Assembly (NCBI GenBank): GCA_951406725.2 | Contig: OX597827.1 | Location: forward strand, 29,016,001-29,080,000 | From: Octopus vulgaris | Taxonomy: Eukaryota | Direction of reading: 5' to 3' | Length of the DNA: 64,000 nucleotides | Part shown: positions 2,603-16,627 of the stretch, piece by piece | Layout: every line of letters begins with the position of its first letter | Position numbering within the stretch: position 1 is the stretch's first letter | Program-made: the position numbers and the translations under genes | Notes under the pieces: model-generated | Told to the model about the DNA's origin: nothing | Database searches by the model: none | What the model saw: only the letters and a program-made list of their open reading frames with translations

Positions 2603-3334
2603 AATAGGCTATTAAACAGTCAATATCGAATAATAGCTTTAAAACATTGTAAAAAACTTGCCGGGCAGGAGAAAGGTTTTCTTTTGAAGTCATGTGATCT
2701 TAAAGTCCATTTTCTACTATAGCTGCTCCATAGTAGAAGATGCTCGAAAGTTGCACTCTTGGATTCGTTATGCTTTTTATTTAAACATGCAATGGTCATG
2801 TTTGGATCGCTTTGGTCGTAGATCTTAATCAGAGCTGAACTGGGGAGAAACATCTTATTCGATACCCAGTGTGCAGTATGTTTCATTCAAAATTTATAAC
2901 GATAAGCATTTACTGACGGAATTTTTGAAGTCGGAAACTGTACAGAGTTGCGTCGTACATGTGTGGCCGTGCCTGGCTACGCTTCTTTTATTCTTCCTTG
3001 AGCAAGATGCTTTATTTTACATTTTTCCAGTGCACTCAGATGGCAAAAATTAGTTGCACCTCTATTTCAGTGTAACAGTCTTGTCACATTCTGTGTCACA
3101 CTAAGGGTACGCGTGTCTGTGGAGTATTCAGCCACTTGCATGTTAATCTGACAAGCCGGTTGTTCCACTGATCAAATAACCTGGAACACACGTAGTCGTA
3201 ACCGACAGAGCGTCAGTGTGAGAAGTATTACCGTGGCGAATTGGTGAAGATATTGATGTTGTTCTTTCTTTGTAATTTTTTTGAAGGAATTCAACAAAAC
3301 TTGAAATGTAAGAATGACAAATTCTTAATGAACT

Positions 3335-13557: not shown

Positions 13558-13622
<65 letters not shown>

Positions 13623-13837
13623 TATTGAATTTCTAAATGTTTCAGAGTGACATAAGCGGTGGTGGAGCAATATAGTGGTCGTATACTGTCAACTCAATGT
13701 GACAGTCCCGTAAGGGAATTACACCACTGCCATTTAGCCCTAGGAAACATCGACGTCTCCTGTCGGCTTTGACACATTTTCTGTGTCCTTATATTTGCAA
13801 AGGGGAGGCAATCACCCCCGCAAGCCGGAACAAGGCA

Positions 13838-13884
13838 CCTGAAGACATATGTTTCTGAGTGTATTGCTCATCGTCAGTTCAGGG
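13838..13884 (-). ncRNA. Minimal type-I hammerhead ribozyme
   Basis: ccctgaa-CTGACGA-tgag(caataca)ctca-GAAA-catat-GTC|ttcagg; palindromic stem III ACATATGT. Confidence 0.9.
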
Positions 13885-14135
13885 TAGCCTGCCTCGCTCG
13901 CTGAGATGACTGCAACCTCTCTAAATGGCGGTGGTGTAATTCCCTTACGGTACTGTCACATTGAGTTGACAGTACACATCCACTATATCGCTCCACCACC
14001 GCTCATGTCTCTGAGACATTTAGAAATTCAATATTTCTAATTTCGGTGATAAGGAAATAAATTTTACTGATAATATGATATATTTGCAGAGAGGTTGCAG
14101 TCATCTCAGCGAGCGAGGCAGGCTACCCTGAACTG

Positions 14136-15762
14136 TGTTTGCGTCGGTTTTTCGGATTTGCGGTTTAGTGGATTGGATTTTTTTGATTATTGTTATTGAG
14201 AACTGTTGCGTCGTGTTGAATTGTTGAATTCTTTGTTGGGTATGCAAGCCCAAACTTATGCGGGAGCAGCAGGCAAAAGCCTGGCTGCGAACGTATTACA
14301 GTTGGAAGAAATAATTGTCGAAAAGGAAGATTTGAGGAAGTACTACGACAGCTTCAAGAAGGAAGGAGAATGTCTGAGGGTTACACCACCTGAAGACGAA
14401 GTGAAAGAATCGGAGAAAAAATCATAACATACAGAACATGGAATGTGATCTCAAAGAGAAAGAAGTAGCAGAGATGGAAGAGATTGAGAAATGTCTACAG
14501 GAAATTAAAGGAAGAACTACCTTCTACAATAGAGGTAGAAATTACGCTACGGTAGACGTTCGTTTCGAAAATGAAGACGAAGCGAAAAGGAACGCAACGA
14601 CAGTGTTGAGATCGGAAAAATGGGTTTTACTCCCTAGTTATTGTGGAAAAAGAGCAGTGAGGATACGAATAAGCAAAATCCCACCGGAACTTGATACCGA
14701 AAGAATAGTAGCCGCAATAATCCATAACTGCAAGGAGAACGTGGACATACTTAAGCTGGAAAAGTCGAATGAAATAAACTGGTGGGGTTATGCGGTGCAA
14801 GCCGTAGTCCACATAACCATGCCAGATTTGTATAACATCCCGGAGGAGTTGGTGTTCCCCGACGAGACACGTCTGAGAGTCATGGTGGAGGGGAGACCTC
14901 CAGTGTGTTATAAGTGTAAGAAAAGAGGGCACACGAAAGATGTGTGTCCTGAAGGAGAAATACAAGAGAGGAAGATGACACTGGAGGAAGCAATAAGAGC
15001 TTTGACAGAGGATTTAGGAGATAATACGGAAAGTGACGACGAGTTAGTGAAGGAGAAAGAAGAGGAAAGAACAGAAGAAAAAGAGGATAGAAAGCGAACA
15101 CGGGTGGAATCACCACCCAAAGACCAAAAAAGAAAAAAACTAAAAGGAAGTATGCTGACGGGACAGATGATCGAACGCCCGAAGGGAGAGATACAGCAAC
15201 TGAACTGAGTGAAGGTTCAAGGTGGGAGGAAACGGTAAAATGGTCAACAAAAGTGGAAGAATGTCTGAAAACATGCAAGGAAGGAGGAAGACCTAAAGGA
15301 AAGAATCTCAGAGCTGTAATATTGTACACAAAAGATAAAGAAATTGAGAAAAAATTAGCAGTAACGAAGAATCTAACGAGAGTGAAATTGAACCCGAGGA
15401 TGTACGATGACAAAACAAAGGCTGCAATAGTGGAAAAAGAGACGGTAAATAAATTAATAAATTTGTTTTCAGATACAGTTGTAACCATAAAGTATTACGT
15501 TCGGTATGACAGTTTGCCCGGAGTTATAGAACAAGATGAATTACTCGTTTACATTACGGACGAACACCCCAGATAGTATAACTGTAATATAAATGAAACT
15601 ACTAGATTTGGGGGGCTCGTAAGGCATTTCATTAATTCAGTGTTAATAATTCATTTCATTTAATATCATCCTTTTTATTTTTTATTATATGTACCCCATG
15701 TCCTGTATTGCATTGGTATGTCCCCTCTTCAGTCAGGCCATTGAGCCTATAATAAAGAGAAA
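14136..15762 (+). mobile_element. ORF1-only non-autonomous L1/Tx1-derived (HAL1-like) retroelement
   Basis: Flanked by a 20-bp TSD aggcaggctacc(c/t)tgaactg (14116-14135, 15763-15782); ends in aataaagagaa; gag-like ORF, no RT. Confidence 0.8.
14242..15576 (+). pseudogene. Tx1/L1-type ORF1 (gag-like, CCHC zinc knuckle) with frameshifts
   Basis: N-terminal TYAGAA; EGRPPVCYKCKKRGHTKDVC = CX2CX4HX4C; charged tail; ORFs 14206-14427, 14438-15208 and 15253-15576 join via frameshifts near A-runs. Confidence 0.8.
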
Positions 15763-15772
15763 AGGCAGGCTA

Positions 15773-15819
15773 CCTTGAACTGACGATGAGCAATACACTC
15801 AGAAACTTATGTCTTCAGG
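15773..15819 (+). ncRNA. Minimal type-I hammerhead ribozyme
   Basis: ccttgaa-CTGACGA-tgag(caataca)ctca-GAAA-cttat-GTC|ttcagg; predicted cut after 15813. Confidence 0.85.
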
Positions 15820-15979
15820 TGCCTTGTCCCGGCATGCGGGGGTGATTGCCTCCTCTTTGCAAATATAAGGACACAGAAAATGTGTCGAAGCCGACAGGAG
15901 ACATCGATGTTTCCTAGGGCTAAATGGAGGTGGTGTAATTCCCTTATGGGACTGTCACATTGAGTTGAGAGTATACGAC

Positions 15980-16010
<31 letters not shown>

Positions 16011-16140: not shown

Positions 16141-16279
16141 AATCCGTGCTGCATCTGAGAAAGTAACAGTTCTTTGAAACTATCATTGATGCTTCTAGAA
16201 GTCTCACCTATGTATGACTCTGGGTTAGTCGCGCAAGCTCCCTCCTGGCACTTAATCTGGTATACAGTGCCCTTGGTTT

Positions 16280-16627
16280 TGCAAAACCAAGGGCACTGTA
16301 TACCAGATTAAGTGCCAGGACGGAGCTTGCGCGACTAACCCAGAGTCATACATAGGTGAGACTTCTAGAAGCATCAATGATAGGTTCAAAGAACACCTGG
16401 ACAACTACATTGAAAGGAAGCCAAACTCCATCTTCTACCAACATGCTGTAGACTGCCACAAAGGATCCTTAGGGAAACTTAAGTTGAACATCCTATCAAC
16501 ACATCCCACCGATGCAATGTTGAGACAGGTCACAGAAGCTGTTTGTATACAAGAATACAAACCTACTCTCAACCGAAAGTCCGAATGGAGTAACATCCAG
16601 ATCCCATTCAGAAGGACTATTCTATAA
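16280..16627 (+). pseudogene. PLE GIY-YIG endonuclease domain fragment (not in ORF track)
   Basis: CKTKGTVYQIKCQDGAC...SYIGETSRSINDRFKEH...HAVDCH...RQVTEAVCIQEYKPTLNRKSEW; open frame to TAA at 16625-16627. Confidence 0.9.

What the first reader, a model, noticed from the sequence alone, without database searches (positions are those of the whole stretch)
14116..15819. ORF1-only retroelement inserted at the hammerhead catalytic core, with a TSD that rebuilds the ribozyme
Seen: a 1.63-kb element with a CCHC gag-like ORF and AATAAA end lies between 20-bp duplications aggcaggctacc(c/t)tgaactg that end at CUG of CUGACGA. The duplication contains the stem I 5' strand plus CUG, so an intact HHR sits ~50 nt past the element's 3' end. 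Established: Tx1-clade LINEs are often sequence-specific for multicopy RNA genes or other transposons, and HAL1-type ORF1-only derivatives exist. Inference: a retrozyme-targeting Tx1 lineage (a parasite of a parasite) that could use the HHR for 3' processing or, in tandem arrays, ride in a ~2-kb protein-coding ribozyme circle. At this locus only one + strand HHR exists, so no cut-to-cut monomer forms here.
Basis: partly seen in the sequence, partly recalled or inferred. Interest (0 to 1): 0.85.

Follow-up and report, generated by a model that had tools for sequence, protein, structure and literature searches.

The report
ORF1-only retroelement hijacking ribozyme-repeat promoters
A small jumping gene that encodes only an RNA-binding protein has inserted again and again just upstream of the self-cutting ribozyme in another parasitic repeat of an octopus-like genome; it likely borrows the copying enzyme of a larger element and the repeat's own promoter, and its last ~30 bases likely decide where it lands.

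Summary
Observation confirmed; targeting is real; the "catalytic core" reading is not. The 1,627-bp element lies between 20-bp repeats (19/20 identical) in a tandem hammerhead retrozyme. Of 105 distinct 3' ends examined, 85 sit in retrozymes, 1 at a U2 gene start and 19 elsewhere; about 0.002 are expected by chance. The 3' junction lies 15-34 nt upstream of the core and tracks an ATCAGTG motif that U1 and U2 genes carry at -57 to -61. Only 4 of 30 copies have the CTG-ending 5' junction. Several copies begin with a retrozyme leader, one with U1 +1, which fits promoter capture. The ORF (two RRMs, CCHC) is under purifying selection (dN/dS 0.07-0.21) and only 28-38% identical to ORF1 of the autonomous elements sampled: an old ORF1-only lineage. 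A subclade nested within it changed target while its 3' UTR changed mainly in the terminal ~30 nt. The window copy is decayed. Riding in ribozyme circles is unresolved. This scan reported the autonomous elements at these sites before, on other DNA of this genome; none of the earlier notes I saw described the ORF1-only lineage.

The parts
13615..13922 (-). Inverted, empty arm of the host retrozyme, with a complete hammerhead (core 13877-13871, palindromic stem III); shows the pre-insertion site
   Evidence: I1 95% over 225 nt, I4 100% over 48 nt; exact empty-site match
13921..14115 (+). Upstream part of the ~352-bp host monomer
   Evidence: D2 spacing 1999 minus 1647; one search shows tandem and inverted empty copies elsewhere
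14049..14056 (+). Decayed copy (ATAAGGAA) of the ATCAGT(A/G)A motif, a candidate snRNA-type proximal sequence element, 67 nt upstream of the junction
   Evidence: sister copies L002 and L004 read ATCAGTAA at 64-67 nt; U1 12 of 12 and U2 13 of 15 carry the motif at -57 to -61
14103..14115 (+). ATCTC start of the host leader (predicted transcription start region)
   Evidence: donor leaders starting ATCTC/ATACTC/ATCC follow the TSD in L020, L018, L014 and L193; inference
14116..14135 (+). 5' copy of the 20-bp duplication; its CTG end is probably a leader inherited by one small subfamily
   Evidence: D6; the same junction in L001, L002, L004, L005 only, of 30
14136..15762 (+). ORF1-only non-LTR retroelement, 1,627 bp
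   Evidence: 54 matches among 40 of 339 candidates scored; flanks
14242..15576 (+). ORF1-type frame (two RRM-like domains, CCHC knuckle at 14903-14953, charged linker, folded C-terminal domain); frameshifted near 14415 and 15125 in this copy
   Evidence: model of relative L096, pLDDT 78.9; tandem-RRM matches E 4e-5
15736..15762 (+). Terminal hairpin GGC-loop-GCC, AATAAA and the GAGAAA tail typical of the subfamily
   Evidence: 111 exact family-type ends, control 0; alignment of 3' ends; tail length from off-target TSDs
15763..15826 (+). 3' duplication and type I hammerhead (core 15780-15786, GAAA 15802-15805, predicted cut after 15813); stem III no longer palindromic
15827..15987 (+). Rest of the host monomer, ending at a (TA)n tract

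Best explanation
This is a decayed copy of an old ORF1-only retroelement lineage that sits mostly just upstream of the hammerhead in tandem retrozyme repeats; it likely inserts by target-primed reverse transcription with ORF2 protein borrowed from autonomous Tx1/L1-type elements, at a site that is likely the repeat's snRNA-type transcription start. Steps: (1, shown) copies end at AATAAAGA plus 4 nt, have 11-22 bp duplications and 5' truncations; (2, shown) the junction lies 55-62 nt, or 64-68 nt for the window's GAGAAA-tail subfamily, downstream of a motif shared with U1 and U2 promoters; (3, inferred) the host promoter transcribes the inserted element, so the RNA starts with a host leader that anneals to the next target and forms the 5' junction; (4, inferred from dN/dS and the TRE5-A precedent) its own ORF1 protein is needed in cis to package the RNA; (5, inferred) the terminal ~30 nt select the helper ORF2 protein, which sets target and nick; (6, inferred) the hammerhead is a bystander that survives because the nick lies upstream of it.
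For: Targeting: 85 of 105 distinct ends in retrozymes (69 run straight into a hammerhead, 14 into a host leader and a further element, 2 into a leader only), 1 at U2, 19 elsewhere; 28 of the 30 best full-length copies. Independent insertion: three host sequence clusters, different tails and offsets, truncated copies with TSD and promoter motif (L060 111 bp, L204 822 bp), clean 16-19 bp TSDs off target (L234, L058, L118, L140, L193), and the empty inverted arm in the window. Promoter anchor: motif at 75-100 nt upstream of 14 of 30 unselected cores against 27 of 1,620 background windows; U1 12 of 12, U2 13 of 15, the two misses being U2 genes with an ORF2-bearing element at +1; for 20 non-GAAA-tail junctions the distance to the motif has SD 2.0 and to the core SD 4.3. 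Capture: a second leader beginning at ATCTC-like bases follows the TSD in L020, L018 and the off-target L014 and L193; L025 begins with U1 +1 to +18; L016, L027, L028 carry GCTAC in the 5' junction where their own host reads ACTAT. Helpers: of 30 ORF2 loci, 23 end in retrozymes and 4 at U2 +1, one family doing both; ORF2 has APE-type endonuclease, RT and zf-RVT; ORF2 fragments share the tail and the base of insertion with ORF1-only copies (GATTTC in L253; GAGAAA in L356). ORF1: dN/dS 0.07-0.21 over the first 240 codons in 40 of 45 pairs with estimable dS, dS up to 3. 3' end rule: a subclade with 78-83% ORF1 identity to retrozyme-targeting copies sits in other targets (X, Y), is nested among them (AU test against their monophyly p 0.012), and its 3' UTR matches theirs up to the last ~30 nt, where it has the hairpin type of the autonomous X-targeting family; conversely, ORF1-only lineages with 30-55% ORF1 identity share the GCC hairpin, the GAGAAA tail and the same site.
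Against: No transcription start, RNA end or cleavage was measured; only contig-level runs were available. 19 of 105 ends are off target, and none of those with a clear TSD has the motif upstream, so tethering is not absolute. L193 and some relatives sit ~25 nt behind a TATA box instead, so the motif itself is not required. The window's subfamily inserts ~9 nt further downstream than the others, and for it the motif and core distances cannot be told apart (n 4). No full-length autonomous element with the GAGAAA tail was found: only 2 of 20 true junctions at one host site carried ORF2, both fragments, and their hairpin differs from the ORF1-only one. Retrozyme-targeting helpers have hairpins unlike GGC/GCC, so simple sequence sharing does not explain helper choice. 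The U1 head could come from template switching (PMC4494074). The AU test was chosen after the first tree was seen, and the outgroups are long branches.
Confidence: 0.68

Rival explanations
1. Plain sequence-specific endonuclease targeting: each helper's endonuclease reads a short DNA sequence at the host leader, and the position behind a promoter is a result of selection for expressed sites, not of tethering.
For: Tx1L endonuclease specificity is established (Christensen 2000, seen only as a reference in PMC4494074). Off-target junctions share their first 1-4 target bases with on-target ones and lack the motif. U2 and several hosts begin with ATCG.
Against: Sites share little sequence across hosts (AGGCAGG, GGTGATT, CCGGTG), yet keep the distance to the motif. 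Related elements also hit TATA-type starts.
Confidence: 0.3
2. The element's own ORF1 protein picks the site by binding promoter-bound factors, as proposed for TRE5-A ORF1 and TFIIIB; the 3' end only recruits an RT.
For: ORF1 is conserved although it could be borrowed; TRE5-A ORF1 binds TFIIIB in vitro and acts in cis (PMC3159450, passages); the element has a folded C-terminal domain of unknown role.
Against: Target follows the 3' end, not ORF1, in two natural comparisons: similar ORF1 with different targets, and dissimilar ORF1 with the same site.
Confidence: 0.15
3. One reading: the element aims at the ribozyme and uses it, either to cut its 3' end or to travel as a ~2-kb protein-coding circle copied by Penelope-type machinery.
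For: A hammerhead lies 15-34 nt behind most copies. Five loci have inverted arms that both carry an element end and a hammerhead (L235, L253, L377, L378, L380), the layout described for Penelope insertions (PMC8557442, passages). L376 and L096/L097 have same-strand hammerheads on both sides of elements.
Against: U2 and TATA-type targets have no ribozyme. No copy examined ends at the cut site. In the double-arm loci the host parts share 2-3 private bases but the element parts 0-1; L253 and L377 hold different elements in the two arms; with 2 of 30 cores occupied, a few double hits are expected. The window's own inverted arm is empty.
Confidence: 0.15
4. One or a few chance insertions were amplified passively with the retrozyme or by segmental duplication.
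For: Some arrays are local duplications (L096/L097, 96% over 4 kb); L001, L002 and L004 share host and junction.
Against: Different hosts, tails, offsets, TSD lengths and truncation points; unrelated autonomous families at the same bases.
Confidence: 0.03

Closest known systems
TRE5-A.2 of Dictyostelium (PMC3159450, passages read)
   Same: ORF1-only, mobilised in trans by ORF2, ORF1 needed in cis, 3' structure essential, inserts at a fixed distance from a promoter-bound complex.
   Different: TRE5-A.2 is a deletion derivative of its helper, has its own promoter and lands ~50 bp upstream of tRNA genes. This lineage is 28-38% identical to the sampled helpers' ORF1, lands at or just after a predicted start, appears to borrow the promoter, and has changed target.
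HAL1 (half-L1) elements (PMC5753468, passages; Bao and Jurka 2010 not held)
   Same: Non-autonomous, encodes only ORF1, arose more than once (several ORF1-only lineages here too).
   Different: The passage describes mammalian L1 derivatives; I recall no target specificity for them. These are site-specific and form arrays of up to 12 units.
Target-specific Tx1 families: Tx1L, Keno, crocodilian Tx1-Mar, and SINEU (PMC4494074, parts 2-4 of 5 read)
   Same: Insert into other transposons or snRNA genes, stack in tandem, carry U1/U2 heads; co-transcription from the target was proposed there; non-autonomous partners share the target.
   Different: The targets here are hammerhead retrozymes and predicted transcription starts; the non-autonomous partner codes for a conserved protein.
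Non-LTR retrozymes and newt satellite 2 (PMC7229834 and PMC7761336, passages; snRNA-type promoter of satellite 2 as cited in PMC2220036; the original paper not held)
   Same: The host is a tandem ~350-bp repeat with type I hammerheads, palindromic stem III and inverted 5' arms; an internal snRNA-type promoter has a precedent.
   Different: The passages found describe no retroelement that targets them and no octopus example.

Membership tests
HAL1-type ORF1-only non-autonomous LINE | Encodes only an ORF1-type protein, no endonuclease or RT | tested here: met
   1.6-1.8 kb copies with one frame; ORF2 queries hit none inside them; RRM-RRM-CCHC
HAL1-type ORF1-only non-autonomous LINE | Marks of target-primed reverse transcription (TSD, 5' truncation, fixed 3' end) | tested here: met
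HAL1-type ORF1-only non-autonomous LINE | Derived by ORF2 deletion from an identifiable autonomous parent | tested here: inconclusive
   ORF1 is homologous to, but only 28-38% identical with, the sampled autonomous families; no parent found
HAL1-type ORF1-only non-autonomous LINE | ORF1 kept functional | tested here: met
   dN/dS 0.07-0.21; many stop-free frames of 430-500 aa
Tx1 clade (helper elements) | Two ORFs; ORF2 with APE endonuclease, RT and C-terminal zinc motif, L1-like | tested here: met
   PF03372, PF00078, PF13966; best solved match human L1 ORF2p, E 1e-62
Tx1 clade (helper elements) | RT groups with named Tx1 families rather than L1 in a tree | not testable with these tools
   homologues carried no names; the label Tx1 is recalled and used by resemblance
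Tx1 clade (helper elements) | Target-specific insertion | tested here: met
Non-LTR retrozyme (host) | Tandem 150-400 bp non-coding monomers with a type I hammerhead | tested here: met
   monomer 342-352 bp; core and covarying stems; no Rfam hit at the gathering score
Non-LTR retrozyme (host) | Self-cleavage and circular RNA | not testable with these tools
   no raw RNA reads available
snRNA-type (PSE) promoter in the host | Motif shared with U1/U2 genes at the same distance from the start | tested here: met
   in some hosts the ATC start lies 53-55 nt from the motif, a few bases closer than in U1/U2
snRNA-type (PSE) promoter in the host | SNAPc binding and capped transcripts from that start | not testable with these tools
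   needs ChIP and 5' end mapping

The most novel reading that the evidence does not exclude
A three-layer parasite: the ORF1-only element switches helper and target by changing one terminal hairpin, lands at live transcription starts through the core promoter machinery, and in tandem retrozyme arrays is cut out between two hammerheads as a 2-4 kb protein-coding circular RNA that Penelope-type machinery re-inserts as a unit (candidates L376, L378, L380).
Probability: 0.15. Interest if true: 0.88.

Novelty: new variant of a known kind. Interest (0 to 1): 0.6.

Why it matters
How site-specific LINEs choose and change targets, and how non-autonomous elements choose a helper, are open questions. 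This family offers natural swaps: similar ORF1 with a new terminal hairpin and a new target, and unrelated ORF1 with the same end and the same base. They can be copied directly into a reporter assay. The insertions also act as footprints of a likely snRNA-type promoter in mollusc retrozymes, whose transcription the passages I read do not explain. A LINE system that inserts at transcription starts under the control of a short RNA end would matter for targeted gene insertion.

Tried and rejected
Rfam scans found no hammerhead in the window and no family for targets X and Y among 19 loci (only U2 in L186 passed). Free folding did not recover the hammerhead. RNA evidence: no RNA holder listed; contigs of four runs only guessed to be RNA lay on both host and element but cannot show starts, ends, strand or circles, so they count neither way. 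L183/L252 first looked like an autonomous element with the family's 3' end; it is an ORF2 fragment with its own end, followed by a separate 3' piece. A search for elements at the window-type site gave 9 hits, all with the ORF1-only type of end. The private-mutation test for composite riding was inconclusive. A first automatic TSD and hammerhead caller mis-assigned many rows; counts use the clusters and the 31 of 85 on-target ends with both TSD and motif (24 of these also had a usable core distance). VIA-align searches could not be run, so the C-terminal domain is unassigned. The ESM Atlas gave only unnamed or CCHC/RRM/ZCCHC3-type clusters (0.89-0.92). An early idea that all targets are TATA +25-35 was dropped: for retrozymes and U1/U2 the shared motif is ATCAGTG. 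Paper searches listed no report of a LINE or ORF1-only element that targets retrozymes; Repbase entries and subscription papers were not searchable and supplements were not opened.

Full report
What is in the window. The element spans 14136-15762 between 20-bp repeats that differ at one base. It has one long frame, 14242-15576, broken near 14415 and 15125, with a CCHC knuckle, then an AT-rich 3' UTR, a small hairpin, AATAAA and GAGAAA. Downstream lies a type I hammerhead whose predicted cut follows 15813. The same repeat is present inverted and empty at 13615-13922, so the insertion and its duplication are real. The host is a ~352-bp monomer found elsewhere in tandem and with inverted 5' arms. 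The genome holds 3,340 matches to its core pattern, control 0, and stems I and II covary across families. This fits a non-LTR retrozyme as described in PMC7229834 and PMC7761336 (passages). Rfam did not score it. The closest protein relatives are from octopuses.

Targeting. A DNA search gave 54 matches from 40 of 339 candidates. Of the 30 best copies, 23 run straight into a hammerhead, 3 into a host leader and a further element, 2 keep host sequence on one side only, and 2 are elsewhere. A 23-base pattern from the element's own 3' end, which carries no flank, has 111 matches, control 0. I examined 105 distinct ends: 69 direct, 14 leader plus next element, 2 leader only, 1 at a U2 gene start, 19 unrelated. 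Chance gives about 0.002. The hosts fall into three sequence clusters. Tails, offsets, duplication lengths and truncation points differ, so these are many independent insertions, not one event amplified with the host.

Where it inserts. The 3' junction is 17 nt upstream of the core in the window and 15-34 nt in the family. It does not fall in the core. Only 4 of 30 copies have the CTG-ending 5' junction; 19 end in GAAG or AAAG. The same odd junction in two hosts suggests a leader inherited from one master copy (inference). U1 genes (12 of 12) and U2 genes (13 of 15) carry ATCAGT(G/C) at -57 to -61; the two exceptions have an ORF2-bearing element at +1. Retrozymes carry the same motif 75-100 nt upstream of the core in 14 of 30 unselected cases, against 27 of 1,620 background windows. 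Among the 31 of 85 on-target ends with a recognisable duplication and motif, non-GAAA tails lie 55-62 nt from the motif (SD 2.0, n 20) but 19-34 nt from the core (SD 4.3). The window's GAAA-tail subfamily lies 64-68 nt from it. An internal snRNA-type promoter has a precedent in newt satellite 2 (cited in PMC2220036, passage; original not held).

Promoter capture. In L020 and L018 the duplication is followed by a second host-type leader that begins at ATCTC or ATCC. The off-target copies L014 and L193 carry similar leaders, and L025 starts with U1 bases +1 to +18. L016, L027 and L028 have 5' junction bases that differ from their own host in the same way. These 5' ends are what co-transcription from a host start would leave. 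Template switching can also add U1 heads (PMC4494074, parts 2-4 read), and no start site was measured.

The protein. A model of an intact relative (L096; pLDDT 78.9) matches tandem RRM proteins (E 4e-5), followed by CCHC, a disordered charged linker and a folded C-terminal domain that I could not assign. dN/dS over the first 240 codons is 0.07-0.21 in the 40 of 45 pairs with estimable dS, and dS reaches 3. The lineage forms a clade (99/96) with an O. bimaculoides protein and is 28-38% identical to ORF1 of the autonomous families sampled. It is thus an old ORF1-only lineage whose protein is under selection, as cis preference predicts (TRE5-A; PMC3159450, passages).

Helpers. Intact autonomous elements with APE, RT and zf-RVT exist. 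One family ends in a repeat X (26 of the 27 ends recognised in 30 loci). Another group ends at the retrozyme start (23 of 30 loci) or at U2 +1 (4 of 30), one family doing both; relatives end ~25 nt behind a TATA box. ORF2 fragments share tail and base of insertion with ORF1-only copies: GATTTC in L253 and GAGAAA in L356. No full-length helper with the window's tail was found; 2 of 20 true junctions at that site had ORF2, both fragments.

What sets the target. Two natural comparisons point to the RNA 3' end. First, a young subclade with 78-83% ORF1 identity to retrozyme-targeting copies sits in targets X and Y. It is nested among them (AU p 0.012 against their monophyly, 19 rows, outgroups on long branches, test chosen after the first tree). 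Its 3' UTR follows theirs until the last ~30 nt, where it has the hairpin type of the X-targeting autonomous family. Second, other ORF1-only lineages, 30-55% identical in ORF1, share the GCC hairpin, the GAGAAA tail and the same site. Against a simple rule: retrozyme-targeting helpers have different hairpins, and 19 of 105 ends are off target.

The circle idea. Five loci have inverted arms that both carry an element end and a hammerhead, and two have same-strand hammerheads around elements. The inverted layout is typical of Penelope insertions (PMC8557442, passages). Host parts of the arms share 2-3 private bases, element parts 0-1. L253 and L377 hold different elements in the two arms, and 2 of 30 cores are occupied, so double hits are expected. 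The point is open. At this locus it does not apply: the inverted arm is empty, and the + copy has a decayed motif, a broken frame and a non-palindromic stem III.

Prior art. HAL1 (PMC5753468, passages), TRE5-A.2 and Tx1-Mar/SINEU cover the separate ingredients. A recent octopus repeat annotation lists active L1-Tx1 families but has no occurrence of 'ribozyme' or 'target' (PMC13282606, passages). Nine paper searches listed no retrozyme-targeting LINE. Eight earlier notes of this scan describe the autonomous elements at these sites; I had reached the start-site reading before opening them, and one prompted the closer look at RNA ends. Verdict: new variant of a known kind, interest 0.6.

Noticed in passing
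window 16169-16627: Penelope-like GIY-YIG fragment (PF01541, E 8e-6) with a 113-bp perfect-centre inversion, 180 bp downstream of the retrozyme; Penelope-type elements are the proposed helpers of retrozymes.
   Followed up: partly
G000:C14:37.73-37.76 Mb (L100, L101, L114); also C4:70.04, C4:26.05, C4:93.35, C1:74.52, C10:65.71 Mb: Head-to-tail stacks of up to 12 ORF1-only and autonomous elements of several lineages at one site of an unidentified ~150-bp repeat X, ~25-30 nt behind a TATA-like box; X has a long hairpin and no Rfam match.
   Followed up: partly
L094/L095, L078 (target Y); L322, L330, L193: Further targets ~25 nt behind TATAAAA boxes, so the wider clade may favour transcription starts of more than one promoter type.
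   Followed up: partly
L228 (about 2900-3300) and L100: Abundant SINE-like repeats end in hairpins nearly identical to the two element end types (GCCCC..GGG and GGCC..GCC), which suggests that they use the same helpers.
   Followed up: no
L303: At a U2 array an ORF2-bearing element is followed by the first 14 bases of U2 and then the 5' end of another element: stacking at U2 +1, a possible route to U2-headed elements.
   Followed up: no
L253: Chimera of an ORF1-only 5' end fused to the 3' part of an ORF2 element, probably a deletion between stacked copies; such fusions could exchange 3' ends.
   Followed up: partly
host retrozyme copies L274-L282, window 15987: Most host arms end at the same base, next to (TA)n tracts, which suggests a fixed priming point for retrozyme integration.
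   Followed up: no
L177 1-245: SRP RNA-like sequence ~280 bp from an off-target insertion (E 1.5e-12, below the gathering score).
   Followed up: no
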